NCBI GenBank assembly: GCA_046563655.1
Contig: CM102284.1
Coordinates: forward strand, 930,001-994,000
DNA from: Yuukianura sp. NJ FZ-2021
Taxonomy: Eukaryota
Reading direction: 5' to 3'
DNA: 64,000 nt
A program made the translations under genes and the position numbers. The notes below the pieces were generated by a model that was not told the DNA's origin, did no database searches, and saw only the letters and a program-made list of their open reading frames with translations. The first letter of the stretch is position 1. The number at the start of each line of letters is the position of its first letter. This document shows positions 8,823 through 48,313 of this stretch, in pieces.

Positions 8823-11201
8823 ATGCATTTCAAAATTCTGTTCATTTTAGCTTATTTGACAGCACGTTGCTTAGCAACCGAGATAATGGTGGTTCAAAAT
8901 TTAAATTTCTACATAAGTAAGTACACGGACTGCAAAGTTATACTGTTGTTGAAGTCAACCAGTATTCAACCAATCAGCGATCCCGTTTTCATTAACATAG
9001 GAAACTACAGACACCCAGAATCGAACTGGCGGGACTTTTCAAAAATGAAACTTCCGTTCTGCCGCGTATTTTTCTTTTTGGTTCATTACATTAGTCCTCA
9101 AAATTTTGAAATTTCTGTGAAGCTGTTGAAGTATGCAAACAGAGGTGCGCCTGGAAAGACGGTGGCGTTTATTGGCTTCACGATGCGCAAACAAGAATAT
9201 TTTCAAAATTTCTGTTTGAACATTCAAAAAAACAAACCGCGTCTAGATGGTAGCTGTCATTATGGGCCAAAACTAGCAACTGTGTTGGTCATTGGTAATT
9301 CCACTGAAGGCCAAGTTCAACCATTTGTTGCGAATACTAGCGTCACACACAGGTCAAAGGTCAAAGCATTTCTAGTCGGAAAGGCACCGCCCAAAACCAA
9401 ACTTTTCAAAATTCCACTCGTTTGCCGCCTAATTTCTACTGAAGATTGCTTAATTCCGTACAAGTTGAAAATGCATCTCAGGTTTGATGAATACCTGACA
9501 GTCGATTTTGACTTTCTGTCGGAGAGTCCGTGCAACTCTGACCAAAATTTGTTCAACATCACAGATTCCATGTTGAACAAACTTTATGGTCCACTGTCTA
9601 ACGTTCCCATGGCAACCAAATCCTTATTTGGGAAGAGACCTCCTGGAAAAATTGGCACTATTTTGTCGTTTTTCGTATATATGGAAATGCTATCAATTTC
9701 AGTTAGCTGCATTCAAGTTCACCAGAAGCCACACATTGAAATCAGCCAAGAAGAATTTTTCAAAAAACATTTTGTGAAAAACTTTGTTGATGACAGTGCA
9801 TTCATGTACTTACACATTGGAATGTTCTTTCCTTTTCACTTTCCGACTCCTATGACCCATGAGCAGACGCCCACGGACACTTTGATCCTAGATATGACAG
9901 AGATGGCATTTTCCACTTGCGACGGCGTGTCAAGGTCACTTGGATTTGGAATTTACCTCACACCAATGGACAACATGAGCTGGATGTTCCTAGTCGCCAT
10001 GACAACCGTCATCATCCCACTTGCTTTCACAGGAATAGCCATGTTCCGGAAATTACGCGGGAAAATAATAGTGAAACTATTTCTAAATTCCTTCGTCTCA
10101 TCAATGTGTGCCGTTCTTGAAATTTCTGCTGGTCTCACTGACAAACTTGTGGAAACCTTGAACCTCTTGCCCCACTATCGCTTCGTATTTGGTTCATTTG
10201 TGCTGGTATTGGTAGTAATTGTGAATGGGTACAAAAGCTTTTTTACTGCCAGTATTTTGGCCCCACCAAAAGCCACCCACCGGTGGGACTTCTTCAATCA
10301 ACTCGAAGGATTTCTTATAATTGCTCCAAATCCATACTTTACTACGATCCTTCCTAAGCAAGAACTGGTCGTTACTCATGACTGCGCCCCTGTAAAATGC
10401 AAATGCGAAGCAATGGGTTACTATAGTTACGGATTCGACATGAAGTTCGACAAGAGTCGAACAACTAAGACAGAAGATTGCAAATTGTGTGAAAAATACG
10501 AAAAATATTTTGCTCATGTGCGGCCACACGATGATCCTCTGAAATCTGTGGACTGTGCAAATGAAACTTATTGGACAGCGCTACGTGGTTCGTGGGAAGT
10601 ATCTTTGCCTTCAACGGAATTTCCTTCAGATTCGCCTTTACAAAAATCAAAATATGTTGTGAAAAACAAAGGCCAATTTCGGTCTAGTTTCGCTGATCAT
10701 TTCAACTCAAGTGAAATCGCTAAAATTTTGAAACAGTGTGATCGAACTGCTTTTGTGGACTACGTGGAAGCAGTGAAGTATTTTATGACTGAACTTGTTT
10801 TTCAAAAATTGGAAGCGGGAGATGCGAACGGAGGCCTTCAGGAGTTTCATATTTCAAAACAAAAGTTATTAGAAATGTGGATGGGGATTGCCTTTGCTCC
10901 ATTTCTCAAAGAACATGAACTTCCGGAGGAAGAAATGATGCAGAGGATGCACCAACTCATTGAACATGGAATATTTGAAATCTGGCGAAGAAATGATCAA
11001 GACGAAACAGCACTGAAGTTAGAAAAATACGAAGAGACTATATCAAAGTATCGAAAGTTGCCGCGCAAATTGACTTTGAATTTAAACCTAGTGACGGCCA
11101 TGATTCTATGGGCTGCATGTGTGCTACCGTCAGGAATTATATTTCTCATAGAATATTTGAAAAATGTTGTTAGTAAGTCAACACTAAAGTTCAAAATTTA
11201 G
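8823..11201 (+). CDS. Divergent IR-like membrane protein, copy 3 (intronless)
   Basis: First ATG at 8823 (MHFKILF). Collinear with the other copies and carries the same motifs. Confidence 0.75.
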   Translation: MHFKILFILAYLTARCLATEIMVVQNLNFYISKYTDCKVILLLKSTSIQPISDPVFINIGNYRHPESNWRDFSKMKLPFCRVFFFLVHYISPQNFEISVKLLKYANRGAPGKTVAFIGFTMRKQEYFQNFCLNIQKNKPRLDGSCHYGPKLATVLVIGNSTEGQVQPFVANTSVTHRSKVKAFLVGKAPPKTKLFKIPLVCRLISTEDCLIPYKLKMHLRFDEYLTVDFDFLSESPCNSDQNLFNITDSMLNKLYGPLSNVPMATKSLFGKRPPGKIGTILSFFVYMEMLSISVSCIQVHQKPHIEISQEEFFKKHFVKNFVDDSAFMYLHIGMFFPFHFPTPMTHEQTPTDTLILDMTEMAFSTCDGVSRSLGFGIYLTPMDNMSWMFLVAMTTVIIPLAFTGIAMFRKLRGKIIVKLFLNSFVSSMCAVLEISAGLTDKLVETLNLLPHYRFVFGSFVLVLVVIVNGYKSFFTASILAPPKATHRWDFFNQLEGFLIIAPNPYFTTILPKQELVVTHDCAPVKCKCEAMGYYSYGFDMKFDKSRTTKTEDCKLCEKYEKYFAHVRPHDDPLKSVDCANETYWTALRGSWEVSLPSTEFPSDSPLQKSKYVVKNKGQFRSSFADHFNSSEIAKILKQCDRTAFVDYVEAVKYFMTELVFQKLEAGDANGGLQEFHISKQKLLEMWMGIAFAPFLKEHELPEEEMMQRMHQLIEHGIFEIWRRNDQDETALKLEKYEETISKYRKLPRKLTLNLNLVTAMILWAACVLPSGIIFLIEYLKNVVSKSTLKFKI

Positions 11202-11950
11202 TAATACAGGCCCAATGAAAAATGGAAATTTAAATGCACTTTCAGCACTTTTCAAGAAAACAAAACCAAAACATAAATGACATTTTAACATAAAATAAAA
11301 TATTTGGAATAGTGCTAGCAATACTTGTAATTCTGAAACAACACTTTTTTCTTAAAACACCTTTTTCTCGGCACTTTTTCTGAAACTACACGTTAAATAT
11401 AATAATTATAATTAACAATTAATTAATAAATAATAAAAACAATCAAATATAATAAGCTCCAAAATATTCCTCACAGTGGCAATCCTTTTGATACTAGAAC
11501 TACACTCTTTCATCGGAAGAATAAATTTTAATCTGTGAACTTTAAACTTTGCCAGAAAACATCTTCTTTTTCCACTCAATTTATTCTATTCTATAACTTA
11601 TTCTACTAATTTTATGAGACAAAAGTTTGTGCCAATCGTGTTTTAGTGCCTTTTCAAAATTAGTTGCATGCATCACGAGCGTCCGACTTCAAAACTTATG
11701 CAAACATCTTATGTGAAATGTTTTTTCTTTGTAAAACAGAAAATATTTTCATATGCCTTCCATGATTACGACAATTTTTTTAATGAATCTAAAAATGTAT
11801 AATTAATAAAAAGAATTCACGAACATATCTCCATACTTATCATTCTTGGCAGTCCTTACTCTGCTCGTAACCGAAGAACGCGTTCGCCTGCTAAACTCCG
11901 TAGTCAAGTTGAGTACATCAAAAAACTAAACAGCCCAAATATTCTACAGG

Positions 11951-14371
11951 ATGGATTTCAAAATACTGCTCATTTTAGCTCTCATTACACTTGGTTGCCT
12001 AACAACCGAGTCAACAGTGTTTCAAAATTTAAATTTCTACATAAGTAAGTACAGGGACTGCGGAGTTGTACTCTTGTTGAACTCAACCAACCAATGGGGA
12101 ACCAGCATTCAACCAATCAACGATCCCCTTTACATCAAGACAAGGTACGACAGACACACATTACCCAACTGGCGGAAATCTTTAAAAACGAAACTACCGT
12201 TTTGCCGCGTATTTTTCTTTTTGCTTGAATACATTACTCCTCAAAATTTTGAAACTTCTTTGAAGTTGTTGGAATACATAAACGTAGGTTCATCAAATCA
12301 AAGTGTGACGTTTATTGGGTTCACGATGCACAAACAAGAATCTTTTCAAAATTCATCTTTGAACATTCAAAAGAACAAAGGAACGCCAGATTCCTGTGTA
12401 TTGGTGATAGATTTCTCTGAAGGCCAAGCTCAAATATTGGATGCTAATACTAGCGTCACATACAGGTCAAAGGTCAAGGCCTTTTTAATTGGAAACGCAC
12501 CGCGCAAAAACAAACTTTTCAAAATTCCACTCGTTTGCCGCCTAATTTCTCCTGAAAAATGCTTTATCCGCCAAAAATTGAAATTGCACATCAGGCTTCA
12601 TCGAAACCGTGGCGGTTATTCTTCTTTTTTGATTCGGTCGAAGAATGCTTTTCCGTGTACCTCCGCTGACCAAAATTTGTTTAACATCACAGATTCCATT
12701 GCGCACAAATTTTATGGCCCACTATCCAACGTTCCTATGGCAACCAAAGCCCTATTTGGGAAGAGACGCCCTGGAAAATTTGGCACAATGTTATCATTTT
12801 TCGTGTTTATGGAAATGTTATCAGTCTCAGTTGGTTGCATGCAAGTGCATCCACTTCCATACGTTGAAATGAGCCAAAAAGATTTTTTTGAACATTTGGC
12901 AAAAACCGCTTTTGGTGACGACGATATTAATAGAAAATTTGAAATGAAATTCCCTTCTCAATATGTAAATCCTTTGTTCGATATAGTTCGAACCACGGAG
13001 GTCATTATTGTTGACATGTCAGAAATGGTATTTTCCACTTGCGATGGTATGTCAAAGTCATTTGGATTTGGAATTTACCTCACACCAATGGACAGCATGA
13101 GCTGGATATTCCTAGTTGCCATGACAACCGTCATCATCCCACTTGCTTTCACAGGAACAGCCATGTTCCGGAAATTACGCGGGAAAATAATAGTGAAACT
13201 ATTTTTGAATTCCTTTGTTTCATCGCTCTCCGCCGTTCTTGAAGTTTCTGCTGGCCTCACCGACAAATTTGTGGAAACCTTAAGTCTCGTTTTCTACTAT
13301 CGCTTGGTATTTGGTTCATTTGCTCTTGTGTTGGTGGTAATTGTGAATGGTTACAAAAGCTTCTTTACTGCCAGTATTTTGGCCCCACCGACAGCTACCC
13401 ACCAGTGGGACCTCGTCAATCAGCTCGAAGGATTTTTTATAATTGCTCGGAATTCGTACTTGGCGCTGCTCCTGGGGCGAGGAATGATTGTTCCTTCTTG
13501 TTGTTTTCTTGCAGAATGTAAATGCGAATCTATGGGTTATTTTCGCGGTGTTCGCAAAAGTCGACCAATGTCAGAAGAATGCAAACTGTGCGAAAAATAT
13601 CAAGAACATTTTGCTCATGTGCAACCATATGATGATCCGGTGGTTTCAGCAAATAACTGTGGAAAGGATGCAATTTCATCGAGATGGGATAACTATTTTC
13701 GGTGTATTTCTTTACCTTTAACAGAAATCCTTTCACATTCGCCTTTACAAAAACCAAAATATGTTGTTAAAAACACAGGGCAATTTTTTTCTTCTGCAGT
13801 TCTTGATTTTAACAAAAGTGTTATAACTAATCTTTTGGAAAAATGTGATCGCACAGTTTTGATCGACTATGACTACGCAGTGAAGCACTTTATAGCTGAA
13901 CTACTTTATAAAAAATTGGAAGCCGGTAATATCGAACAAGGCCTACAAGAATTTCCGATTTCAAAACAAAAACTCGTAGGAATGTGGGATCGAGTTATTT
14001 TTGAGCCGAAGTATAGGAGGGGTAGAGCTTACGTTAAAGGAGATTGGGGATTTGAGCACGACAAAATGATACTGAGGATGCACCAACTCATTGAGCATGG
14101 AATTTTTGAAATCTGGCGCAGAAATGATCAGGAGGAAGGAGCAGAGAATTTAGAAAAACACGAACAGGCAATAGCAAGGTACCGAAGTTTGCCGCAAAAA
14201 TTAACTTTGAATTTAAACATGGCGACGGCCATAATTCTATGGGTTGTGTGCGCACTACCATCAGCAATTATTTTTCTCATAGAATATTGCAAAGATGATA
14301 TTGCTATTAAGTTGATAACTACAGCTAAAAAAATTAGCATTAGTTTTTCGTCCATGAAAACGGAATCCTAA
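11951..14371 (+). CDS. Divergent IR-like membrane protein, copy 4 (intronless, 806 aa)
   Basis: Intact ORF with the same signal peptide, TM block and C-terminal motifs. Confidence 0.75.
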   Translation: MDFKILLILALITLGCLTTESTVFQNLNFYISKYRDCGVVLLLNSTNQWGTSIQPINDPLYIKTRYDRHTLPNWRKSLKTKLPFCRVFFFLLEYITPQNFETSLKLLEYINVGSSNQSVTFIGFTMHKQESFQNSSLNIQKNKGTPDSCVLVIDFSEGQAQILDANTSVTYRSKVKAFLIGNAPRKNKLFKIPLVCRLISPEKCFIRQKLKLHIRLHRNRGGYSSFLIRSKNAFPCTSADQNLFNITDSIAHKFYGPLSNVPMATKALFGKRRPGKFGTMLSFFVFMEMLSVSVGCMQVHPLPYVEMSQKDFFEHLAKTAFGDDDINRKFEMKFPSQYVNPLFDIVRTTEVIIVDMSEMVFSTCDGMSKSFGFGIYLTPMDSMSWIFLVAMTTVIIPLAFTGTAMFRKLRGKIIVKLFLNSFVSSLSAVLEVSAGLTDKFVETLSLVFYYRLVFGSFALVLVVIVNGYKSFFTASILAPPTATHQWDLVNQLEGFFIIARNSYLALLLGRGMIVPSCCFLAECKCESMGYFRGVRKSRPMSEECKLCEKYQEHFAHVQPYDDPVVSANNCGKDAISSRWDNYFRCISLPLTEILSHSPLQKPKYVVKNTGQFFSSAVLDFNKSVITNLLEKCDRTVLIDYDYAVKHFIAELLYKKLEAGNIEQGLQEFPISKQKLVGMWDRVIFEPKYRRGRAYVKGDWGFEHDKMILRMHQLIEHGIFEIWRRNDQEEGAENLEKHEQAIARYRSLPQKLTLNLNMATAIILWVVCALPSAIIFLIEYCKDDIAIKLITTAKKISISFSSMKTES

Positions 14372-14617
14372 ATTCAATTTCACACTAATGAATAAAAAAT
14401 AACCGAAGCACGAATCACATTTTATCGCTTCAAATCAAACATTCTGCACCAATTCTTGAAAGTGTAAAACTACTTTTTCTTCAGAAAAATATACTTCAAT
14501 TTAAGAACTTCGCAATCTACAAAAAAAAAAACAACTTCTTTTGCCATTAGATTTTGAGGCCTGAAGAAAAAATGTATTGCATTCACGGGTCACAAACAAG
14601 AATCATTTCATAGAATG

Positions 14618-14900
14618 TCATAGAATATTTGAAAAATGTTGTTAGTAAGTTGATAACTAAAGTTGAAAAAATTAGCAGTAGACAAGGCCCAATGAAAACG
14701 AAATTAAAAATGCACTTTCGACGCTTTTCAAGTAGCAAAAGAAAACATTTTAGCACTTGAATTAAAATACGCTACACATGAGCTATCCTTGTGATGAAAA
14801 AACTACACTTTTTTTTCGGAAAAAGTACATTTCAATCCGTGAACTTTAAAATTTGTGAGATAGCATCTTCTTTTGCCACTCAATTTAATTAGTTATAACG
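14618..14900 (+). pseudogene. 3' remnant of a deleted IR-like copy (last codons plus 3' flank)
   Basis: tcatagaatatttgaaaaatgttgttagtaagt matches the end of copy 3 (~11146 onward) and is followed by the homologous downstream flank. Confidence 0.7.
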
Positions 14901-15117
14901 TATTCTGCTAATTTTTTAGACAAAAATTTGTGCCTATCGTGTTTTAGTGCTGGTTCATGACTTGTTCCTTTAGTTGCATGCATCACGAGCGTTCGACCTC
15001 AAAACTTATGCAAACATCTTATTTGAAATGTTTTTTTTTTGTAAAAACAGAAACTATTTTCATATGCTTTCCGTGATTACGACAATTTTTTTTTAAGAAA
15101 TCGAAAAATGTATATCT

Positions 15118-15903
15118 AACTAGGATCTTCGGTGGCCTGCGGCCACCGAAAGATCCTAGTCTGTTGCGTACGTACCAGTTTGACGGACTATTTGTACAAA
15201 AAAACGATATCCCAATCGATAAATTAACAAAAAGATCGACCAAAAACAAAATTGGGTACAATTAGTTAGTATTTAGCTCACTTCAACCCGTGTGTTGTAT
15301 AAAAGGAGCAACTTGTCATGCGCACAGACGGTGGATGCGCAGCATGCACCCATCATGCAAATCTGAGGAGTGCGAAGGGTCCGGCCTTTAGCCAGACCCT
15401 GCTGAGGAAGAGGACACGAACACACACAGAGGGTTGAGGATAACTCCCCCTTATGTAGAAGATTGGTTATCATTATCAAACTACAAACGGTACTTCTTTT
15501 TCCGTTAACATGCTTTGGCGGTACAAATATGAATTAAAATAAAATCTGTTAAAAAAAGAGAACAACGACATAGTACAAAGTGTACTTCAACCGTCTTTCA
15601 GATGAAAAGTTCTTTTCCGAGGAATAGTCATCCACAAACTTCCCGGTCAGAAAGACGTTATGTCACCCTGATTGTACCCCGAATTGTACATGTGGTTGGT
15701 TTGCCTAACCTAACACTAAATCGATTAAAGTAGGAGCTAAGTTAGGTAACTCAACAAATTATGGAATGTATTTGATTGTTCAGTTGACATACAGTGTGGT
15801 TTAGTAAGAAGTATTAGTTGAAGGGAACAATGACACAGTACAGTGTGTACGTCAGCCTTCTCTAATGCTTTTGGGCCTATGGCCAGACTGACAAACATCT
15901 TGT
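15118..15903. mobile_element. Helentron-associated (HINE/DINE-1-like) non-autonomous insertion upstream of IR-like copy 5
   Basis: Absent from the homologous upstream region of copy 4 (~11800). Starts with a near-perfect hairpin actaggatcttcggtggcc-tgc-ggccaccgaaagatcctagt and ends with a short stem-loop (ggcctatggcc). Family call is tentative. Confidence 0.5.
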
Positions 15904-16032
15904 AATATGTATATGATATGAAGAACTCACGAACATATCTACATATCTCAAACTTATTATTTTTGGCAGTCCTTGCTCTGCTCGCCACCGAAGAACGCCT
16001 TGGCATGCTAATCTCCGTAGTTAAGTCGAGTA

Positions 16033-16936
16033 CGTATTTTCCCTAATAGTACACCATACCTAAATAGTACACCAGGTCCCTAATAGTACACCAGGTCCAG
16101 GGCCCGAAAAATTAATTAGTACACCGTCCCAAATAGTACACCAGGTCTCTAATAGTACACCGGGTCTTTGGTAATACACCCAAGGAGTATGCCCAGTGTT
16201 GCTGTATGCTTAAACATCCAGTGGCTTAATCCATCCGGATATCCAATAGACTAAATGGGGTTGTAGTGGACGGTAAATGCAACAAATTAAAAATTCAGCG
16301 GAGTTCAAATAAATTTAAGTTAACTATTATAAAATAATTTATTTGCATTTTAAACCGTCTCTTGATATGCGCACCCATTGACGAAATATCGAAAAAGTGG
16401 ATTTCCAGCAACTCTGAGTATACGCCTACTGGAAAAGTTTGGCTATATTTAATTAAATTTTACAGTGTTGGTGGATGGATAAAATACTTCTTCCACTTCC
16501 CTCGAAAGTAGTGATATATCCGGATTTTCTTGGTTTCTTCCGGACGAAACTCAATTTCGTCCATCTGAAACTGGATTTCATCCGGATTTATCCATTTATC
16601 CAGTGGATATATCTTGGACGAAATGCTCAAAAAGTGGATATCCACCAACACAGTGATTAAATACAACAGAAATAACATTAATGTTCTTTCTATCTTGTTC
16701 CTACACAACCAATTCTACAAAATACACATCATTTACAGGCTTCTTTAAAATTTTTACAAGCAAAATTCGAATATTTCTTGCGTAATTTCAATGAGAGGTT
16801 AGTAAAAAATAATAAGCTTTTTGGAAAAAAGAATTATTACACCGTCCCTAATAGTACACCAGGTCTCTAATAGTACACCACCCCCAGAAGTCGAAAACAA
16901 AATTAGTACACCAGGTGTATTATTTGGGAAAATACG
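16033..16936. mobile_element. Tc1/mariner-superfamily (pogo/Tc2-like) MITE with nested hAT MITEs
   Basis: TIRs cgtattttccctaatagtacacc / ggtgtattatttgggaaaatacgg, TA target duplication (empty site gagTAcat in copy 4), internal aatagtacacc repeats. Ends ~42 bp upstream of the copy 5 ATG. Confidence 0.8.
16194..16653. mobile_element. Two adjacent hAT-type MITEs of the cagtgttg family (~16194-16416 and ~16463-16653)
   Basis: Termini cagtgttgctg...tccagcaactctg and cagtgttggtggat...atccaccaacacag with many ggatatcc motifs. Same family as 55873-56279 and 60240-60633. Confidence 0.6.
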
Positions 16937-16978
16937 GTACATAAAAAACACTAATAAACAGTCCAAATATTCTGCAAG

Positions 16979-19450
16979 ATGGATTTCAAAATTCTGCCCA
17001 TTTTAGCTCACATGACACTAGGTTGCTTAGCAACCGAGCCAACAGTGTTTCAAAATTTAAATTTCTACATAAGCAAGTACAGGGAATGCGGAGTTGTACT
17101 CTTGTTGAACTCAACCAACCAATGGGAAACCAGCATTCAACCAATCAACGATCCTCTTTACATCAAGACAAGATACGACATAAACACACTACCCAACTGG
17201 CGGAAATTTGTAAAAACGAAACTACCGTTTTGCCGCGTATTTCTCTTTTTACTTGAATACATTACTCCTCAAAATTTTGAAACCTCTTTGAAGTTGTTGG
17301 AACACATAAACGTAGGTTCATCAAATCAAAGTGTGGCGTTTATTGGCTTCACGATGAACAAACAAGAATCTTTTCAAAATTCATCTTTGAACATTCAAAA
17401 GAAGAGAGGAACGCCTGATTCCTGCTTATTGGTGATAGATTTCACCGAAGGCCAATGTCAAATATTGGATGCTAATACTAGCGTCAAACACAGGTCAAAG
17501 GTCAACGCCTTTTTAATCGGAAACGCACCACGCAAAAACAAACTTTTCAAAATTCCACTCGTTTGCCGCCTAATTTTTCCTGAAAACTGCTTTACCCGCC
17601 AAAAATTGAAATTGCACATCAGGCTTCATCGAAACCGTGGCGGTTATTCTTCTTTTTTTATTCGGTCGAAGAATGCTTTTCCGTGTACCTCCGCTGACCA
17701 AAATTTGTTTAACATCACAGATTCCATTGGGCACAAATTTTATGGCCCACTATCCAACGTTCCTATGGCAACCAAAGCCCTATTTGGAAAGAGACGTCCT
17801 GGCAAATTTGGCACAATGTTATCATTTTTCGTGTTTATGGAAATGTTGTCAGGCTCAGTTAGTTTCGTTCAAGTCCATCCGGATCCATACGTTGAAATAA
17901 GCCAAAAAGATTATTTTGAACATGTGGCAAAAATGTCCGTTCGTGGCAAGAATATTTTTACAGATTTTGAAATGGAATTCCCTTCTACGAAATCCGTAAA
18001 TCCTTTGTACGAAAGCGATCTAACCACGGAGGTCATTATTGTTGACGTGTCAGAAATGGTATTCTCCACTTGCGACGGTGTGTCAAGGTCACTTGGATTT
18101 GAAATTTACTTTACACCAATGGACACCATGAGCTGGATGTTCCTAGTCGCCATGACAACCGTCATCATCCCACTTGCTTTCACAGGAATGGTCGTATTCC
18201 AGAAATTAGGCGGGAAAATAATAGTGAAACTATTTCTAAATTCCTTCGTCTCATCAATGTGTGCCGTTCTTGAAATTTCTGCTGGTCTCACTGACAAACT
18301 TGTGGAAACCTTGAACCTCTTGCCCTACTATCGCTTGATATTTGGTTCATTTGTTCTTGTGTTGGTCGTAATTGTGAATGGATACAAAAGCTTTTTCACT
18401 GCCCTTATTTTGGCCCCACCGAGAGCTACCCACCGGTGGGACCTCGTCAATCAGCTCGAAGGATTTCTTATAATTAATCAGAATTCGTACTTGATACTTG
18501 TCATCCAGCAAGAAATGATTGCTCCTTCATATTGTTACCCTGTAGCATGTAAATGCGAATCTATGGGTTATTTTCGCGGTGGCGGAAAGTTTCATATAGT
18601 GCTCAACAAAACTCGACCAATGTCAGAAGATTGCAAATTGTGCGAAAAATATCAAGAATATTTTGTTCATGTGCAACCTTATGATGATTCGGCGGTATCA
18701 CCAAATGACTGTGGAAATGATGCAGTTTCATCGAGATGGAATAACAATGTTCGGTATTTTTTCTTACCTTTAACAGAAATTCCTTCACATTCGCCTTTAC
18801 AAAAATCAAAATATGTTGTTAAAAACACAGGGCAATTTTTTTCTTTTGCAGTTCTTGATTTTAACACAAGTGTAGTAACTAATCTTTTGGAAAAGTGTGA
18901 TCGCACAGTTTTGATCGACTATGACTACGCAGTGAAGCACTATATAACTGAACTACTTTATAAAAAATTGGAAGCCGGAAATATCAAACAAGGCCTACAA
19001 GAATTTCCGATTTCAAAACAAAAACTTCTAAGAATGTGGGATCGAGTTATTTTTGAGCCGGGGTATCAACGGGGTGCAGCTTACGTTAAAGCAGGTTGGG
19101 GACCTGAGCACGACAAAATGATACCAAGGATGCACCAACTCATTGAACATGGAATTTTTGAAATCTGGCGCAGAAATGATCACGAGGAAGGAGCACAGAA
19201 TTTAAAAAAACACGAACAGGCGATAGCAAGGTACCGAAGTTTGCCGCAAAAATTAACTTTGAATTTAAACCTAGTGACGGCCATGATTCTATGGGTTGTA
19301 TGCGCACTACCGTCTGCAATTACTTTTCTCATAGAATATTGGAAAGATGATGTTATAAAGTTTATAACTACAGCTAAAAAATTAGGATTAGAATTCGTCC
19401 ATGAAAAACGGAATCTTAAATTCAATTTCACACTAATGAATAAAAAATAA
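16979..19450 (+). CDS. Divergent IR-like membrane protein, copy 5 (intronless, 823 aa)
   Basis: Intact ORF, closest to copy 4 in the N-terminal and S2-like regions. Confidence 0.75.
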   Translation: MDFKILPILAHMTLGCLATEPTVFQNLNFYISKYRECGVVLLLNSTNQWETSIQPINDPLYIKTRYDINTLPNWRKFVKTKLPFCRVFLFLLEYITPQNFETSLKLLEHINVGSSNQSVAFIGFTMNKQESFQNSSLNIQKKRGTPDSCLLVIDFTEGQCQILDANTSVKHRSKVNAFLIGNAPRKNKLFKIPLVCRLIFPENCFTRQKLKLHIRLHRNRGGYSSFFIRSKNAFPCTSADQNLFNITDSIGHKFYGPLSNVPMATKALFGKRRPGKFGTMLSFFVFMEMLSGSVSFVQVHPDPYVEISQKDYFEHVAKMSVRGKNIFTDFEMEFPSTKSVNPLYESDLTTEVIIVDVSEMVFSTCDGVSRSLGFEIYFTPMDTMSWMFLVAMTTVIIPLAFTGMVVFQKLGGKIIVKLFLNSFVSSMCAVLEISAGLTDKLVETLNLLPYYRLIFGSFVLVLVVIVNGYKSFFTALILAPPRATHRWDLVNQLEGFLIINQNSYLILVIQQEMIAPSYCYPVACKCESMGYFRGGGKFHIVLNKTRPMSEDCKLCEKYQEYFVHVQPYDDSAVSPNDCGNDAVSSRWNNNVRYFFLPLTEIPSHSPLQKSKYVVKNTGQFFSFAVLDFNTSVVTNLLEKCDRTVLIDYDYAVKHYITELLYKKLEAGNIKQGLQEFPISKQKLLRMWDRVIFEPGYQRGAAYVKAGWGPEHDKMIPRMHQLIEHGIFEIWRRNDHEEGAQNLKKHEQAIARYRSLPQKLTLNLNLVTAMILWVVCALPSAITFLIEYWKDDVIKFITTAKKLGLEFVHEKRNLKFNFTLMNKK

Positions 19451-23769: not shown

Positions 23770-23955
23770 CGAGCATGGTATGAAAGATACAAAAGCAGTA
23801 ACACCAAGGTTTCACATGGAACACGTATATAGTTAGTGCTAGGTTTGCTTGCTATCACCTTCTATGCACCGAGATATTTTTGGAAAGAATTTGAACAGGG
23901 GAAAATGAGGATGCTGACGGGAAAACTCCGTCCAATAGTTCTGGGAACATCATAG
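23770..23955 (+). pseudogene. Innexin fragment (TM2 and following loop), decayed
   Basis: Manual translation LVLGLLAITFYAPRYFWKEFEQGKMRML matches the innexin motif FYxPRxxWKxxEGGK. Frameshift just upstream, stop just downstream, YYQW not recognisable. Confidence 0.65.
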
Positions 23956-24064
23956 TGATCCTATGTCACGTAATTATATGTAAGGTGTAAGGTGAGGTGT
24001 CACGTAATGATTTGGGGTTATTTTTCCTAATCTAACCTAATTCAACCGTTCTATTTCTCATCAT

Positions 24065-24425
24065 ACTGTTGAACGTATTGTGTCTACGTTAAATGATGAA
24101 AATACACTGGCAAACAAGAAACCTCCTGGACGACCGAGAACTGCAACTGGACTTCAAAATCGTATAGCCCTTGTGCAGATATGCGAGAATTCGGTGTGGA
24201 ACCAACAACCACTAACCACGTCCGAAACTGGTGCTCAGTTGCCTGGTCCATGTTCACAAGATTCGGTCAACAGAATTATGAAACTGGAAAAGATTAAATC
24301 TTATCGGATTCAATCGCACCAAAAACTTAAACACACGGATCATTTTCCTAGAGCAACGTTTTGTGAGGGCATGATGTAACGCCAACACAACGACCCGGCT
24401 TTGTTCCGACATATTTGTTTGAGCA
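24065..24425 (+). pseudogene. Tc1/mariner-superfamily transposase fragment (HTH and linker region)
   Basis: GRPRTA...SVNRIMK...SYRIQSHQKLKHTDHFPRATFCEGMM*RQHNDPALFRHICLS follows the pattern preceding the first catalytic Asp. In-frame stop, truncated. Confidence 0.7.
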
Positions 24426-24728: not shown

Positions 24729-25267
24729 CAACACCTAATGAGTTGAGAAAAAGATCTGATGACAAAATTGGATTCGTGGAAACAGGCACTCAGACACAAG
24801 AGAGGAGCAGAACAAACGCAGAGTTGGAAAGATGGTTGCGAGAACAGTAGCCGCCGTAACTTTGGCTCGAGTTGGTTGCTGGAGCTGTATCAATTGTAAA
24901 TAACCAAGCAAATCTAAACAATTTGGCTTCTACGCCGCCAAGTTCAACTGTGTTGTCATAGAAGGAAAAAGTGTAACCAAGAGGCATTGTTGAAATAGGA
25001 GAAATAAAGGGTGCCACTTCTGCCTTCACTACCCCTTTCATTTACACATTAAAAAAAAATGAGAAAAAGAATGGACTCATGGAGTTGGAATAAGTACATT
25101 TACACCAAATACATTACCGTTGGGGTATTGGACAAGGTTTTTGAATTTACCCATAATTGAGATTACGGATTTGCTAAGCTATTCAATAAAGTAATTGTCA
25201 ATTTCATAATATATTAATAACCATAATTACCTAAGTGTTAGATCCACCCTCGGACTCTGCACAAAGG

Positions 25268-25420
25268 GAAATCGAGTACACAGTCTATCTTCAAAGCCCA
25301 GGTGAAATTGTTTTCACTTTGCCTGGTTGCATGTACATGGTATTCAACATGGAGTATACTTGTAAGTTTGATCTAACTTATATTGAATTGATGGATGTTT
25401 AGCGAAGCGTTCCACTCCGG
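25268..25420 (+). pseudogene. JmjC-domain (KDM4/KDM5-like) C-terminal fragment
   Basis: EIEYTVYLQSPGEIVFTLPGCMYMVFNMEYT resembles QxPGEFVxTFPxxYHxGFN. It is followed by a short gtaagt..tttag intron-like stretch and EAFH. The metal-binding His is replaced. Confidence 0.5.
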
Positions 25421-25816
25421 AGACTCCGTCTTACTTCTCTGCAAAAGGTAATTGCCCGCAAAGTTCTCTCGCTTATGGATTTGAAGTTTCATAATAGCCC
25501 TCAGACTTAAATATTAGTTAACCTCTAAAATGCTACGTAAGCATTTCCCGTTGCAAGGTATGCAAGATTGTAAGATTCATTTACCAAGCTTGGAACCCAA
25601 AGGCACCAACTATTAGGCATGAAGCCAAAACTGATCATAAGAAGTTCTTCTACATTGTTGGCGGTCTAACCTATAACTTTTCAAGTCGAAGTGGTTCTTA
25701 AATACTCTGGCATTCAAACCACACCTATATAGACCTCAACTATATTCAGTAAAAAAAATTAGAGGTCTATGTGAATCTAGTTGTATTCCGTAGTATCAGC
25801 CCATGAACGCTGACAC

Positions 25817-26158
25817 ACATTGGCGACCGTGACAGAAGAACCTACAATCTTTCAGAAAGATGGATTTATATAATGTTTATTCGCTGAGGCGTACAAAAAA
25901 GTTACATTACATTTGCCATACCTAGTTTCTTGCATCGATGAAGAAGGAAATCTTGTCATTTAATACTCGACATTGGCGACCGTGACAGAAGAACCTACAA
26001 TTCACCAAAGCAAAGGATGTCCGAAGCAATGTACCTTTTATCTTTTCCGCAATGACTAAAACAGAAAACACTGACAATTAAATATATGATTATGATGATA
26101 GCGACATGAATATCACATAATCGTAAACATTGGCGACCGTGACAGAAGAACCTACAAT
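25817..26158 (+). repeat. Array A: three identical 32-bp repeats separated by unrelated 121- and 125-bp spacers; repeat is tRNA-Arg PBS-like
   Basis: acattggcgaccgtgacagaagaacctacaat at 25817, 25970 and 26127. Confidence 0.9.
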
Positions 26159-26231
26159 TCATCAAAGACAGTGTCTTCGAGAACAAAGTGCGATATAGAA
26201 TGGTGAGAATACTTTTACACTCTCTTCAATA

Positions 26232-27192
26232 CCCTCACAAATGGAGCCTCAGTCGGGAACTCATCTGCTGACCACGCTAACAAGTGCTACAATCTTTCGC
26301 TGATGCTTTTAATATCTTACTACTACGGAATGGGAGCGGCCGTGAATGTGTTATCCACAAAGGGGGAACAAGATACTTGGTATGAACGCGGAAATCTCAA
26401 GGATCTGGTAAAGAATTACTACAAAACTGTGTGTGATGCATGTTCAACTATTTAACCCCCTCAAATGGAGCCTCAGACGGGAATTCAACTGCTGATCTGC
26501 GATTATCAAACAACATTCGCTTTTCAATACATTAGGATGGAGTACTTAGGAACTAAGTGTAGGACGCGTTGGAATGTTTTAAAATTCGTAACAAGTCGAA
26601 ACAAGCTCTGTTATACTATACATGTTATATTACTTAAACCTCTCAAATGGAGCCTCAGACGGGAATTGAACTGTTGATCTTCGATTATAAAATGACCATC
26701 TTCTCTCGCATGCGTAGCTCACGTCGGAACGTTTCAGAATTCGAAGCAGTCAAAGCAATCTCTGTTACGACTGTTTATAACTTAACCCTCTCAAATGGAG
26801 CCTCAGACGGGAATTCAACTGTTGATCCTCGCTTATAAAATGACATTCTTTTTTCACTACATCAATACAAGTACCAGCGAAGCAAGTCGAGGCAAACTCC
26901 GTTATACTATACACTGTTTACTACTTAACCCTCTCAAATGGAGCATCAGACGGGAATTCAACTGCTGATCAAACTCTAAAATTACTTGATTTACAACTAT
27001 AACTTAATGGCTCGCAGAATTCACAAGCTTGCTGTATTAACTCTCAAAACATTGCGTTAGTTTTCTTCAACTGAAACCGACAATTGTTTGTCGAATACAC
27101 TACAAATCACTATGGAGTTTGGTAGGTACAGTAAAGCAAAGTACTGTAGGTAGGTAAACCTCCACAAATGGGCGCTCAGCCGGGAAATAAAC
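26232..27192 (+). repeat. Array B: six ~40-bp repeats (consensus ccctctcaaatggagcctcagacgggaattcaactgctgatc), tRNA-3'-end-complementary, period 143-230 bp
   Basis: The TGG of each copy is at 26242, 26466, 26648, 26796, 26939 and 27169. Outer copies are more diverged; inner spacers are distantly related to each other. Confidence 0.88.
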
Positions 27193-27645
27193 ATGATAGT
27201 AGCGATTCAATACAAGTCTTTACGTGGAATCCAAATCTTTGAGTGTATTACAATGAATGAGAAATATTTGCCAACTGCGAAACTCCTAGAATAAGTAAAA
27301 CGCTCTGTAAAGGCTTGTTTTACTCGTGTAACTAGTTAGTTAAAACCATTAGGAGAATTAGGGCGAGTTGCCCATAAGACTGCGACCGTTGTCTCCTTGC
27401 AACGAAAAAAAACATTGACGTGTCAAGGTGGGACTTCTTTTTTACAGGGTTCCGAAAAACCTATTAAAAGTTTTGAACCTATTCCAATTGAACAAATAGC
27501 CGACATTCATTTCAGAAAATTCCGCAGAGACTCGAATGGGAGCAGAATAATTAATCTATCGCCGAAGCTGATGGATCGGTTTTAAAAGGCTCGGCCAGAA
27601 GCATAAAAATCGAAAAAGTTGCCACATCAGGTGCATGGTCTGTGA

Positions 27646-27700
27646 CCAGTGATTGGTCTTGCCAGTGATTGGCTTGGGCAGCCAGAAATGGGCTATATAA
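27646..27700 (+). promoter_or_regulatory. Pol II promoter-like module: two inverted CCAAT boxes plus TATA box
   Basis: ccagtgattgg at 27646 and 27662; tatataa at 27694. Confidence 0.4.
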
Positions 27701-27844
27701 CCAGTGCTTTGGTGCACATTGTCTCGGTTAGGTCGGTAGGCCCATCAGGCAACGTTTCATCCCGAAATGATAGGAAATTTTTTCAACCATACCCAGTAAC
27801 ACCATGATGTCGGCAATAGTTAGTTCTCTTCAAGATTGAGGATA

Positions 27845-28740
27845 ACTTTTGATTTCGTGATTTCGCGTTGGGTGATTACAGCATCAACTATCATCATCTG
27901 GGAAGTTCGAGATACTGGAGAATCATTCTACCATCATGTGTATAAGAATGTATTAACGCAACACTTTTTGATTTTAAGACTTCGCGTTGGTTCATTACAG
28001 CATCAACTATCATCATCTGGGAAGTTCGAGATACTGGAGAATAATGCTAGAATCATGTGTATAAGAATGTATTAACTTGCTTCAGTTACCCGCAACACTT
28101 TTTGATTTTAAGACTTCACGTTGGTTCATTACAGCATCAACTATCATCATCTGGGAAGTTCGAGATACTGTTGAATAATTCTACCATCATGTGTATAAGA
28201 ATGTATTAACGCAACACTTTTTGATTTTAAGACTTCGCGTTGGTTCATTACAGCATCAACTATCATCATCTGGGAAGTTCGAGATACTGGAGAATAATGC
28301 TAGAATCATGTGTATAAGAATGTATTAACTTGCTTCAGTTACCCGCAACACTTTTTGATTTTAAGACTTCGCGTTGGTTCATTACAGCATCAACTATCAT
28401 CATCTGGGAAGTTCGAGATACTGGAGAATTATTCTACCATCATGTGTACAAGAATGCATTAACGCAACACTTTTTGATTTTAAGACTTCGCGTTGGTTCA
28501 TTACAGCATCAACTATCATCATCTGGGAAGTTCGAGATACTGGAGAATAATGCTAGAATCATGTGTATAAGAATGTATTAACTTGCTTCAGTTACCCGCA
28601 ACACTTTTTGATTTTAAGACTTCGCGTTGGTTCATTACAGCATCAACTATCATCATCTGGGAAGTTCGAGATACTGGAGAATTATTCTACCATCATTTGT
28701 ATAAGGATATACTAACTTACTTCATTTACCCGGCAAGACT
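27845..28740. repeat. Tandem repeat of about 7 monomers alternating 134 and 119 bp (253-bp higher-order dimer)
   Basis: gcaacacttttt anchors at 27958, 28092, 28211, 28345, 28464 and 28598. A 15-bp segment (ttgcttcagttaccc) and diagnostic substitutions alternate between monomers. Confidence 0.92.
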
Positions 28741-29282
28741 TTATCTGATCAGCATTAATAGATCTGTTCTCTCAAGGTTGAACAAAATAAGCAGAAATAG
28801 AATAGTTGTAGGTTAGGTCGCAATAAAATAGTCGGCGTAATCGCCAACTGGTGTTTCTGCCGGATATCCCGCCCCACGCTCCCTCCCATACCGATTCGAA
28901 ATAATTTATCCTTAGTGCTATAATGGTGGGCTTTAAAGTTCCGCATTTAGAACCGAAAAGGTCAAATCAAGCACTAAAGCACTAACCTTACCCCTCGAGT
29001 TAAACTTGTACCTTATAACTTATAACAAGTATTTTTCTATAACTTAAAACAACTTAACCTACAGTATTAGATTTGTAAATATATAAATATTGACAATACA
29101 AAGAATAGCAACCTGTCGTTTGTAAACTGCTTGTTATCATAAATCATCATTTTGACATTGCAAGATCATGACGATGGAGTCTTCGAAGATGACAAACTGC
29201 ATCTTGTCTTCCGCATCAACTCAACAACGGTGACTGGAGTTCACCATGAAGTCACCCTCGCCGGAGTAAAAGTTCAGTTACC

Positions 29283-47469: not shown

Positions 47470-48313
47470 TTTTGTTTCAAACAAGTAAAAATACGAGTTT
47501 TCAGTAAAGTTAAATATGGTTATGAATTTTACTTTTTATTTTTTGTATTTTACACCTTTCCGCTACAGGTTCCTCAATCTTACTGAACCTTGCCATTGTA
47601 ACTAATTAGTTAGTGAGTTAATTTGTTATTAGTGAAAGTTGTTGGTTACTTTATGCTTTGCTTAAGTCCGTCTGTCTGTCAATTAGTCCGTTGGTCATTA
47701 TAAATGTGAAACCATTGGGCCGAATTTTCAATCTGTCTTCAGAGTTTAATTTCCAGTAATCTAAGGAATGGCTAATTCATTTACTTTTTGACCAAACATG
47801 TATAACTTCAAAGGCAAAGTATTTTTTTGTAATCGGAGATCGTGTAAAAATGGCATTTGTAAATTTTATTCACTATAAATTTTATAGTGTGCGACTTTTC
47901 CGTTGACGTCACTTCAGCTTCATTTTCCATTTCGCTACTTGCATAAGGCGTTTATAACTGTTTGTTATAATCTCAACCACGGCGATGGAATCAGCAGGAA
48001 CATTTGTCTATGGCCATTAAACTTTACGCCTGACTTTCATATTTAAGTAGCATTTCCGGAGTGAAGTAGGGACAAGTACATAATCTAACTAGTAAGTGTT
48101 TCAAGGAAGTACAGTATCGAAAACATTTATTTTTGAAAACTGTGTCAAGAACACTTCCAAGATGACATAATTTATTTACACCGAGTTAGGTTTTTATATA
48201 AAAACAAATCTTTTTAGTAAATTCAGCTTCGGTTCGATAAATATATTTATCAATATATCGATAAGATTGGGTAAATAAAGACAGTTAAATAATTTAAAAA
48301 ATTTAAAAAAAAT

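What the first reader, a model, noticed from the sequence alone, without database searches (positions are those of the whole stretch)
25817..27192. CRISPR-like array of nine repeats complementary to mature tRNA 3' ends (tandem primer-binding sites) with no retroelement ORF or LTR pair
Seen: two adjacent same-strand arrays, 3 identical 32-mers then 6 ~40-mers, spaced roughly 110-230 bp apart. Every repeat reads ..CA + 1-2 nt + TGG.., the geometry of an LTR end followed by a primer-binding site (PBS). The repeats are far better conserved than the DNA between them. Established: eukaryotic CCA is added after transcription, so TGG-initiated complementarity points to mature tRNA; LTR elements normally carry one PBS; 3'-tRNA fragments silence LTR elements via the PBS. 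Inference: a transcript of this region could bind many tRNAs of two kinds. It could be a multi-primer cassette for a trans-acting reverse transcriptase making short cDNAs of the spacers (retron-like), a tRNA/tRF decoy or sponge, or a tRNA-guided processing array releasing the spacers. I know of no described eukaryotic system of this form.
Basis: partly seen in the sequence, partly recalled or inferred. Interest (0 to 1): 0.9.

Follow-up and report, generated by a model that had tools for sequence, protein, structure and literature searches.

The report
Array of reverse-copied tRNA ends
Nine short repeats in a gene-poor stretch of an arthropod-type genome are DNA copies of the tail ends of two mature tRNAs, most likely leftovers of retrotransposon-style reverse transcription that were multiplied on the spot, although why the copies stay so much better preserved than the DNA between them is not explained.

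Summary
There are three identical 32-mers (25817, 25970, 26127) and six ~44-mers (26231-27201), all on one strand and 143-230 bp apart. Each reads CA, then 1-2 nt, then TGG. Cores are 80-95% alike and flanks 27-74%.

Family 1 is the reverse complement of the last 31 nt, CCA included, of eukaryote-type tRNA-Arg(TCG). It has a 3-nt gap in the T loop. None of 66 such genes encodes CCA. Family 2 is the reverse complement of the T-loop-to-CCA end of a Thr-type tRNA. It matches prokaryotic tRNA-Thr genes 24 of 24; the host's own tRNAs could not be checked.

Both copies run past the 18 nt of a normal primer-binding site. I read them as footprints of reverse transcription that copied the primer tRNA, or jumped onto a tRNA end.

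Stretch 26436-26970 is an ordinary diverged tandem repeat (71% over 399 columns). Its unit resembles the repeat unit of tandem miniature LTR elements (TRIM). I found no reverse transcriptase, integrase or LTR pair in the window.

Nothing here shows a CRISPR-like, primer-cassette or sponge function. The perfect family-1 cores between unalignable spacers remain unexplained. Interest is moderate.

The parts
25817..25848 (+). Family-1 core a1. It reads CA (25818-19), T, then the reverse complement of the last 31 nt (CCA included) of tRNA-Arg(TCG). Similarity to the tRNA runs a few nt further, to about 25855.
25970..26010 (+). Family-1 core a2. The 32-mer is identical to a1, and 9 further nt are shared with a3.
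26127..26167 (+). Family-1 core a3. The 32-mer is identical to a1 and a2.
26262..26300 (+). Probable decayed fourth family-1 unit. It shares a 12-mer (26287-26298) with a1 in the same register and abuts family-2 core u1.
   Evidence: 1 of 1000 shuffles reach the score
26231..26274 (+). Family-2 core u1. It reads CA, AA, then the reverse complement of the T-loop-to-CCA end of a Thr-type tRNA. Only the core is shared with the other units.
26455..26498 (+). Family-2 core u2
26637..26680 (+). Family-2 core u3. The 24 nt at 26648-26671 are the exact reverse complement of the last 21 nt plus CCA of tRNA-Thr(GGT) genes in L191, L193, L205 and L212.
26785..26828 (+). Family-2 core u4
26928..26971 (+). 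Family-2 core u5
27158..27201 (+). Family-2 core u6, the most diverged copy (59-64% to the others). It keeps CA-AA-TGG and the T-stem motif.
26436..26970 (+). Diverged tandem repeat of units u2-u5, with period 143-182 bp. Each unit has the tRNA-derived core, about 50 nt of poorly conserved sequence, and an 83-88-nt better conserved piece that starts TG and ends CA just before the next core (for example 26558-26645 and 26711-26793).

Best explanation
The nine repeats are DNA copies, antisense on the + strand, of the 3' ends of mature tRNAs. Family 1 copies the last 31 nt of tRNA-Arg(TCG). Family 2 copies the last 24 nt of a Thr-type tRNA. Each copy starts 1-2 nt after a CA, which is where an LTR retroelement has its primer-binding site.

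Both copies run past the 18 nt of a normal primer-binding site. I therefore read them as relics of tRNA-primed reverse transcription in which the polymerase also copied part of the primer tRNA.

The relics were then multiplied on the spot by unequal exchange into a minisatellite-like array. The units u2-u5 have the layout 'short LTR-like piece, primer-binding site, short inner piece', as in tandem arrays of miniature non-autonomous LTR elements (TRIM). The array is most likely inert today.

Shown: the tRNA identity of the cores, the CCA, the geometry, the tandem-repeat nature of u2-u5, and the absence of retroelement genes.

Inferred: the reverse-transcription origin, the LTR-element parentage, the local amplification and the inertness.

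Not explained: why the cores, above all the three identical family-1 cores, are so much better preserved than their surroundings.
For: Family 1 matches tRNA-Arg(TCG):
- A metagenome scan gave 71 loci with 74 matches, 66 of them in tRNA-Arg-type bodies. ARAGORN calls tRNA-Arg(tcg) in 6 of the 6 loci I sent it.
- The minus strand of all 3 family-1 cores aligns to the last 31 nt of that tRNA plus CCA. There are 26 identities, 2 mismatches and one 3-nt gap in the T loop; the last 15 nt are exact.
- A profile of family 1 finds these tRNA genes by itself, E 5.7e-4 to 1e-2 for the 20 rows shown.
- 0 of the 66 genes encode CCA, so the CCA points to a mature tRNA as template.
- An 18-nt insect small RNA ending in CCA, printed in PMC9184468 (passage), contains the same 15 nt.

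Family 2 matches Thr-type tRNA ends:
- A 19-nt pattern from its minus strand hits 45 prokaryotic or viral loci. ARAGORN calls a tRNA in 28 of them: Leu 10, Thr 9, Pyl 4, Gly 2, and Ser, Ala and Glu 1 each.
- Copy u3 matches 24 of 24 nt, CCA included, in four tRNA-Thr(GGT) genes.

Geometry and conservation:
- CA + 1-2 nt + TGG is present in 9 of 9 copies.
- The 18 nt at the primer-binding-site position are the best conserved part of family 2: 2 mismatches in 5 copies.

Local amplification:
- 26618-26970 aligns with 26436-26827 at 71% over 399 columns.
- The unit layout is seen.
- A decayed fourth family-1 unit lies in register at 26262-26300.

No retroelement genes or structured RNA:
- 18 of 22 ORFs of 150 aa or more were scanned and none is a retroelement family.
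- ORFs in and beside the array gave nothing except one JmjC exon.
- No flanking repeat pair was found.
- No tRNA gene or Rfam family was found, and no fold beats the shuffles.

Literature:
- TRIM arrays of the form TDRx_I(x-1), each inner domain starting with a primer-binding site, are described in PMC6934838 (passages) and PMC7215508 (abstract).
- Retroviruses copy the primer tRNA during second-strand synthesis, and reverse transcriptases err at 1-methyladenosine (PMC7472051, passages).
Against: - The family-1 spacers do not align with each other, and u1 and u6 share only the core. Simple tandem duplication followed by neutral decay should have damaged the cores as much as the spacers. Instead the three 32-mers are identical and the u1-u5 cores are 80-95% alike.
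- No terminal direct repeat is detectable in the family-1 part.
- No consistent polypurine tract precedes the TG...CA piece. The tract is purine-rich before 26558 and pyrimidine-rich before 26711.
- The candidate LTR-like piece is only 83-88 nt, below the 100-250 bp quoted for TRIM repeats (PMC6934838 passage).
- The two substitutions and the gap shared by all three family-1 cores show that they are copies of one another, not three separate copies of the tRNA. The spread of so short a piece therefore needs its own mechanism.
- A Logan contig holds the family-1 core (26132-26164) between quite different flanks (table 7). The core exists elsewhere in that data set and may belong to a dispersed family that I could not see.
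- The host's own tRNAs were not available. Family 2 is matched only by prokaryotic tRNA-Thr genes, and the best of the 119 ARAGORN tRNAs from the metagenome loci reaches 15 of 21.
Confidence: 0.55

Rival explanations
1. Functional array of primer-binding-site-derived target sites. A + strand transcript would carry nine sites complementary to the 3' ends of tRNA-Arg and a Thr-type tRNA (or to their 3' fragments). It would act as a target, sponge or decoy primer template, and selection would keep the cores intact.
For: - Cores are far better conserved than flanks.
- In every unit the conserved piece is the tRNA complement that directly follows CA + 1-2 nt. The 18 nt at the primer-binding-site position are the best kept part.
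- The decayed family-1 remnant behind u1 is not conserved.
- The array is collinear in contigs filed under a second organism label.
- An exon-like JmjC piece with a GTAAGT donor lies 455 nt upstream on the same strand, so + strand transcription across the array is conceivable.
- Primer-binding-site-derived 3'-tRF target sites in retrotransposon-derived transcripts are reported to be functional in mouse (PMC12853362, abstract).
Against: - No transcript evidence could be obtained.
- Against the tRNA-Arg genes found, family 1 pairs perfectly over only 15 nt. The rest of the identical 32-mer has a gap and two A-C mismatches, so pairing with the tRNA does not explain why those positions are conserved.
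- u6 has lost 36-41% of the core.
- The surroundings are a mosaic of gene fragments and satellite DNA.
- The two other genomes differ from the window by only about 3%, too little to show selection.
Confidence: 0.15
2. Template-jump chimeras of a non-LTR (LINE-type) reverse transcriptase. While copying some RNA, the enzyme reached its 5' end and jumped onto the CCA end of a tRNA, then perhaps onto a second tRNA. This left tRNA 3' pieces at the 5' junction of a retrocopy, which was later duplicated locally.
For: - The tRNA pieces start exactly at CCA and stop inside the tRNA, at the T loop for family 2 and at the variable or anticodon region for family 1.
- In u1 the Thr-type piece is followed directly by a decayed Arg-type piece, as head-to-tail jumps would give.
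- There is no LTR pair and no polypurine tract.
- Template jumping onto RNA 3' ends, and chimeric retrocopies with small RNAs, are known from my own recall. No paper on this was read here.
Against: - No poly(A) or LINE tail, no target-site duplication and no LINE ORF was seen in the window.
- CA + 1-2 nt before TGG in both families fits an LTR end better. I estimate the chance of this in both families at roughly 0.02.
- Like the main reading, this does not explain the preserved cores.
Confidence: 0.15
3. DNA-level protein-binding box. The cores would be conserved boxes in a satellite-like array of ~150-bp units, bound by a sequence-specific protein. The analogy is with host zinc-finger proteins that recognise primer-binding-site DNA, or with conserved boxes in centromeric satellites (both recalled, not read here).
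For: - The period is 143-230 bp with one conserved 32-44-bp box per unit.
- A 253-bp satellite lies next door at 27847-28742.
Against: - Two unrelated boxes occur in one array.
- There is no evidence for any binding protein.
- The B-box-like part of the T loop is broken in family 1 (3-nt gap) and changed at a key position in 5 of 6 family-2 copies.
Confidence: 0.06
4. Small exons or genes on either strand. Candidates are alternative first coding exons on the + strand (ATG inside the family-2 core), or a short leader exon followed by GT on the minus strand.
For: - Open frames of 60-73 codons start at the ATG of cores u2-u4.
- On the minus strand every core is followed within a few nt by GT.
Against: - Units differ by indels that are not multiples of three, so the frames are not kept.
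- Family 1 has no ATG on the + strand.
- Pfam finds nothing in 4 array ORFs.
- There is no Rfam family and no fold.
- The cores are demonstrably tRNA-derived.
Confidence: 0.03

Closest known systems
[quoted passage not shown]
   Same: Both are non-coding and have no gag or pol. Units repeat head to tail, with one tRNA primer-binding site per unit placed directly after a terminal repeat that ends in CA. In u2-u5 an 83-88-nt TG...CA piece precedes each site (PMC6934838 passages; PMC7215508 abstract).
   Different: Here the units are only 143-230 bp and the repeat-like piece is under 100 bp. There is no consistent polypurine tract. Two different tRNAs are used in one array. The tRNA complement runs 24-31 nt instead of 18 or fewer. 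Five of nine units (a1-a3, u1, u6) share nothing but the core.
Primer-binding site of LTR retrotransposons and retroviruses, and copying of the primer tRNA during plus-strand synthesis
   Same: TGG-initiated complementarity to a CCA-tailed tRNA sits 1-2 nt after a CA. The site is regenerated from the tRNA by reverse transcription (PMC7472051 passages).
   Different: A normal site stops after 18 nt, at the methylated A58 (my recall). Here copying continues into or through the T loop, in family 1 with a 3-nt gap over that position. No element body is attached.
Primer-binding-site-derived 3'-tRF target sites in domesticated LTR-retrotransposon transcripts (mouse; Peacey, Steinberg and Schorn, preprint PMC12853362, abstract only)
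   Same: These are relic primer-binding sites outside active elements that could still pair with 3' tRNA fragments.
   Different: Those are single sites in 5' UTRs of expressed genes and were validated with reporters. Here there are nine sites in an array, with no known transcript and no test.
Reverse-transcribed tRNA inserted into chromosomal or proviral DNA (for example tRNA-Gly next to an HIV provirus, PMC12220202, abstract only)
   Same: A DNA copy of a mature tRNA is present in the genome as a by-product of reverse transcriptase activity.
   Different: That is a single insertion of a whole tRNA, not an array of 3' pieces in the primer-binding-site position.
CRISPR arrays
   Same: Only the look is shared: short conserved repeats with different sequences between them (the family-1 part).
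   Different: The host is eukaryotic. The repeats are tRNA-derived and not palindromic. Most 'spacers' of family 2 are homologous to each other. There are no cas-like genes, and nothing suggests spacer acquisition.

Membership tests
tRNA primer-binding site of an LTR retroelement | Complementarity to the 3' end of a mature tRNA, starting with TGG (the complement of CCA) | tested here: met
   Family 1 is exact over 15 nt and matches 26 of 28 aligned nt to tRNA-Arg(TCG)+CCA. Family 2 copy u3 matches tRNA-Thr genes with CCA at 24 of 24 nt, but these genes are prokaryotic. Host tRNAs were not available.
tRNA primer-binding site of an LTR retroelement | Position 0-5 nt downstream of an LTR that ends in CA | tested here: inconclusive
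   CA + 1-2 nt is present in 9 of 9 copies. An LTR-like conserved piece precedes only u3-u5, and partly u2. Nothing is conserved upstream of a1-a3 beyond ACA.
tRNA primer-binding site of an LTR retroelement | Belongs to an element with two LTRs and, if autonomous, gag-pol | tested here: not met
   The self-comparison finds no LTR pair. No retroelement family was found in 18 of 22 ORFs of 150 aa or more, nor in ORFs around the array.
TRIM tandem array | Terminal direct repeats of about 100-250 bp alternating with inner domains | tested here: inconclusive
   u2-u5 have whole-unit homology of 71% with an 83-88-nt TG...CA piece. This is shorter than the quoted range and is absent from the family-1 part.
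TRIM tandem array | [quoted passage not shown] | tested here: met
TRIM tandem array | Inner domain ends with a polypurine tract | tested here: not met
   The sequence before 26558 is purine-rich (15 of 23), but the sequence before 26711 is pyrimidine-rich and the region is deleted in the next unit.
TRIM tandem array | Dispersed family with canonical two-repeat copies and target-site duplications elsewhere in the genome | not testable with these tools
   No genome is held. The only hint is one Logan contig with the family-1 core in other flanks.
tRNA gene or tRNA-derived SINE | Full cloverleaf, or a 5' tRNA part with A and B boxes | tested here: not met
   ARAGORN finds 0 genes in the window. 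There is no tRNA match even at E up to 10. Similarity upstream of the last 31 nt is not above shuffles: 81 to 462 of 500 shuffles reach the score.
CRISPR-like array | Conserved repeats separated by unrelated, acquired spacers, with associated genes | tested here: not met
   The spacers of u2-u5 are homologous to each other. No associated genes were found.

The most novel reading that the evidence does not exclude
The array is a host-retained, transcribed cassette of nine primer-binding-site-derived sites for two tRNAs. Selection keeps the site next to each CA intact. The RNA either soaks up 3' tRNA fragments or primer tRNAs, or serves as a decoy template that retroelement reverse transcriptases prime on. 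That would be a multi-site tRNA/tRF-responsive element of a kind not yet described in arthropods.
Probability: 0.12. Interest if true: 0.85.

Novelty: new variant of a known kind. Interest (0 to 1): 0.42.

Why it matters
If the main reading is right, the locus is a clear fossil record of reverse transcriptase copying its primer tRNAs beyond the usual stop. Two different tRNAs are recorded side by side, and the locus shows how such debris can seed a minisatellite. That is useful for repeat annotation, because these cores would otherwise be mistaken for tRNA pseudogenes or active primer-binding sites. It is not a new biological system.

The part that could matter more is the sharp contrast between intact cores and scrambled flanks. 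If comparison across species shows that this is due to selection, the array would be a natural multi-site target for tRNAs or 3' tRNA fragments. That would connect to the recent finding that relic primer-binding sites regulate host transcripts.

Tried and rejected
- **tRNA genes and known RNA families.** ARAGORN finds 0 genes. Rfam finds 0 matches at gathering score. At E up to 10 there are only three weak chance-level matches (snoR25, RAGATH-33, 5.8S rRNA) and no tRNA.
- **Own genome.** Not held, so no genome-wide copy count and no host tRNA set.
- **Other copies in public collections.**
  - The family-1 15-mer in viral contigs gives 96 stretches. All have unrelated flanks, which I take for chance matches.
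  - The family-2 18-mer in viral contigs gives 0.
  - The family-1 21-mer gives 0 in metagenome contigs and 0 in genome contigs.
  - Core profiles against the 71 metagenome loci find only the tRNA-Arg genes themselves for family 1, and nothing below E 0.7 for family 2.
- **Earlier findings of this scan.** Nothing relevant.
- **Expression.** No RNA holder is listed.
- **Logan contigs.** The shown tables do not give the positions of most differences (593 rows are not shown), so substitution rates in cores and spacers could not be compared.
- **RNA structure.** The consensus fold of the six family-2 cores has 8 pairs and no compensatory change. Six single folds give z from -1.56 to +1.65.
- **Coding.** Pfam finds nothing in 4 ORFs inside the array, and the frames are not conserved.
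- **Host tRNA for family 2.** Among 119 ARAGORN tRNAs from the metagenome loci, the best end-anchored match is 15 of 21.
- **Extension of tRNA-Arg similarity beyond the last 31 nt.** Not above shuffles.
- **Family-2 tails as decayed family-1 copies.** Significant only for u1. For u2-u6, 103 to 875 of 1000 shuffles reach the score.
- **Mapping the JmjC gene.** The word-index search found nothing. The full HMMER search gave 6 hits; the four I read are internally repetitive proteins, which I take to be artefacts. No further JmjC exon was found in 10 upstream ORFs, and there was no PDB match.
- **Paper searches for the core motifs.** Only an insect small-RNA list (PMC9184468), one paper seen only in the listing (PMC11547106), and chance matches in unrelated sequences or primers.
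- **Failed paper searches.** Two searches failed on term syntax and were not repeated, so I read no paper on template-jump chimeras.
- **Supplementary files.** None were opened.
- **Helitron ends, hammerhead ribozymes and spliced-leader genes.** I considered and dropped these: there are no hairpins, no Rfam match, and the cores are tRNA-derived.
Full report
**What is there.** Between 25817 and 27201 the + strand carries nine short conserved cores.
- Family 1 consists of three identical 32-mers starting at 25817, 25970 and 26127, spaced 153 and 157 bp apart.
- Family 2 consists of six ~44-mers starting at 26231, 26455, 26637, 26785, 26928 and 27158, spaced 224, 182, 148, 143 and 230 bp apart.
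- The leading 15-mer of family 1 occurs 3 times against 0.02 expected. The 18-mer of family 2 occurs 5 times against 0.01 expected.
- Profiles of both cores find all nine copies and nothing else in the 64-kb window.
- Every core reads CA, then one base (family 1) or two bases (family 2), then TGG.

**Context.** The window looks like arthropod nuclear DNA with about 37% G+C.
- Five tandem intronless ~800-aa membrane-protein genes lie at 1.6-19.4 kb. The protein atlas places them nearest to arthropod ionotropic-receptor-like clusters.
- Calpain exons lie on the minus strand at 21.1-22.5 kb.
- Five tandem GMC-oxidoreductase-type genes lie at 44-64 kb.
- The array sits in a 6-kb gene-poor stretch that is a mosaic. 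It holds a weak innexin-like fragment at 23833-23955 (E 4.8e-5, below Pfam's cut-off). It holds one JmjC-domain exon at about 25228-25362 on the + strand, with an AG acceptor and a GTAAGT donor (E 2.3e-9). It holds the array itself, and then a 253-bp-period satellite at 27847-28742.
- No reverse transcriptase, integrase, gag or protease family was found in 18 of the 22 ORFs of 150 aa or more. Of the four not scanned, three are paralogues of the GMC genes and one is antisense to calpain.
- A sensitive self-comparison of 25600-27400 against the whole window shows no LTR-like pair.

**Family 1 is a copy of the end of mature tRNA-Arg(TCG).**
- A paper search for the core found an 18-nt insect small RNA ending in CCA whose last 15 nt are the exact complement of the head of the repeat (PMC9184468, passage).
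- To get tRNA sequences from a tool rather than from memory, I scanned the metagenome contigs for that 3' end behind a T-loop motif. This gave 71 loci and 74 matches, of which 66 are eukaryote-type tRNA-Arg bodies.
- ARAGORN calls tRNA-Arg(tcg) in 6 of the 6 loci I gave it.
- The minus strand of all three cores aligns to the last 31 nt of this tRNA with CCA added: 26 identities, two mismatches (both C to T in the T stem) and one 3-nt gap in the T loop. The terminal 15 nt are exact.
- Copy a1 continues a few bases further. Similarity upstream of that is not above shuffles.
- A profile built only from the three window copies finds these tRNA genes on its own, with E from 5.7e-4.
- None of the 66 genes encodes CCA. 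The CCA in the repeat therefore means the template was a mature tRNA, that is, reverse transcription.

**Family 2 is a copy of the T-loop-to-CCA end of a Thr-type tRNA.**
- A 19-nt pattern from its minus strand hits 7 viral and 38 prokaryotic genome loci.
- On short excised segments, ARAGORN calls a tRNA in 28 of the 45: Leu 10, Thr 9, Pyl 4, Gly 2, and Ser, Ala and Glu 1 each.
- The loci that continue exactly as the window does (discriminator T, then CCA) are tRNA-Thr(GGT) genes. Copy u3 matches four of them over 24 of 24 nt, and two archaeal tRNA-Thr genes over 21 of 21.
- These are prokaryotic genes, some of which encode CCA. No eukaryotic tRNA in my small sample comes close; the best is 15 of 21 among 119.
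- The tRNA nature of the core is therefore shown, but its host source is inferred by analogy with family 1.
- The match starts at the last base of the 5' T-stem strand. The rest of the T stem is not there, which fits copying from the 3' end inward and not a piece of a tRNA gene.

**More than a primer-binding site.** By my recall, a normal site is at most 18 nt because plus-strand synthesis stops at the methylated A58 of the primer. PMC7472051 (passages) states that retroviruses copy the primer tRNA in second-strand synthesis and that reverse transcriptases err at 1-methyladenosine.

Here the copies are 24 and 31 nt. The family-1 copy has its gap exactly over that part of the T loop. I read this as read-through of the primer, or a jump onto a tRNA end, not as a site shaped for binding. 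Against the tRNA found, the part of the 32-mer beyond 15 nt would pair with a bulge and two A-C mismatches.

The three family-1 cores share the gap and both substitutions. They are therefore copies of each other, not three separate copies of the tRNA.

**Array structure.**
- 26618-26970 aligns with 26436-26827 at 71% over 399 columns. Units u2-u5 are therefore an ordinary diverged tandem repeat of 143-182 bp.
- Read from one TGG to the next, a unit has three parts. First comes the tRNA-derived core. Then come about 50 nt of poorly kept sequence. Last comes an 83-88-nt better kept piece that begins TG and ends CA two bases before the next TGG (26558-26645, 26711-26793).
- This is the layout of tandem TRIM arrays, 'terminal repeat, primer-binding site, inner domain' repeated, as described for plants, bivalves and cestodes (PMC6934838 passages; PMC7215508 abstract).
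- It is not a clean member. The repeat piece is short, there is no consistent polypurine tract, and the family-1 part has no detectable repeat piece at all.
- Directly behind core u1 lies a decayed family-1 unit in the right register (12-mer shared with a1; 1 of 1000 shuffles reach the score). The two families were therefore once contiguous parts of one structure. The order, Thr-type piece then Arg-type piece, is what two successive template jumps would give.

**What is not explained.**
- Core identity among u1-u5 is 80-95%, while aligned flanks are 27-74%, mostly at the level of unrelated sequence.
- The three family-1 cores are identical while their spacers do not align.
- Within family 2, the 18 nt at the primer-binding-site position are the best kept: 2 mismatches in 90 nt over five copies.
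- In each unit only the tRNA complement that directly follows the CA is kept, whereas the Arg remnant behind u1 has decayed.
- Simple duplication plus neutral decay does not give this picture.
- Possible causes are selection on the cores, repeated copying from a master (the cores being part of a dispersed family), or local conversion. One Logan contig has the family-1 core between quite different flanks, which hints at copies elsewhere (table 7).
- I could not decide between these. No genome is held, the collections hold no other copy, and the one read-laying run does not show where most differences lie.
- That call does show that the array is real and stable. Contigs under two organism labels cover it, contigs break at the 32-mers as expected for exact repeats, and a 1780-nt contig of the second label spans 26132-27904 collinearly with 48 substitutions and 27 gap letters.

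**Function.**
- No tRNA gene, no Rfam family and no fold better than shuffles was found on either strand.
- The open frames that start at the ATG inside family-2 cores are not conserved in frame and match no family.
- The JmjC exon with its donor 455 nt upstream, on the same strand, makes it conceivable that the array is intronic and transcribed in the sense in which it would pair with tRNAs. No downstream exon could be found.
- A recent preprint reports that relic primer-binding sites in retrotransposon-derived mouse transcripts are working targets of 3' tRNA fragments (PMC12853362, abstract). The bold reading, a multi-site target, sponge or decoy template, is therefore not absurd, but nothing here supports it beyond the conservation pattern.

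**Verdict.**
- The best-supported reading (about 0.55) is a relic of tRNA-primed reverse transcription with primer read-through, multiplied locally into a TRIM-like minisatellite and now inert.
- Rivals are a selected array of tRNA/tRF-binding sites (0.15), template-jump chimeras of a non-LTR enzyme (0.15), a DNA protein-binding box (0.06) and small exons (0.03).
- It is a new variant of a known kind rather than a new system. Interest is moderate because of the unexplained core conservation.

Noticed in passing
window 25228-25362 (+): A single exon-like piece of a JmjC-domain protein (Pfam PF02373, E 2.3e-9, profile positions 69-110 of 114), with an AG acceptor and a GTAAGT donor. The residue where my recalled JmjC motif has the last metal-binding histidine reads tyrosine (no alignment was printed). 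No other exon of the gene was found, so it may be a stray gene fragment, or an exon of a gene whose next intron holds the array.
   Followed up: partly
window 27847-28742: A satellite with alternating 119- and 134-bp subunits (period 253 bp, 3.4 copies at 96%) lies directly downstream of the array. Summed contig depth is much higher here in the public runs, so it is probably multi-copy in the genome.
   Followed up: no
window 1619-19450 (+): Five tandem intronless ORFs of 709-852 aa with predicted membrane segments. They have no Pfam match, and their nearest atlas clusters are arthropod ionotropic-receptor-like proteins (scores 0.90-0.97). This looks like a lineage-specific, divergent chemoreceptor-type gene cluster.
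   Followed up: partly
window 44800-63900 (-): Five tandem copies (period about 3.4-5.7 kb) of a multi-exon gene with GMC-oxidoreductase N-terminal domains.
   Followed up: partly
window 23833-24385: A weak innexin-like ORF fragment (23833-23955, E 4.8e-5, below Pfam's cut-off). Next to it is a 112-aa ORF (24041-24379) that reminds me of a transposase helix-turn-helix region but has no Pfam match. Contigs of public runs align here at only about 85% and run on into other sequence, suggesting a dispersed repeat.
   Followed up: no
window 27015-27051: A 37-nt piece inside the u5-u6 spacer is found in contigs of several runs with different sequence on both sides (loose ends at 27015 and 27051). 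It is another short dispersed repeat.
   Followed up: no
window 25908-25958 (+): The first family-1 spacer contains a run resembling the conserved core of 5.8S rRNA (Rfam RF00002, 10.8 bits, E 7). This is at chance level, but I noted it because captured RNA fragments would fit a template-jump origin.
   Followed up: no
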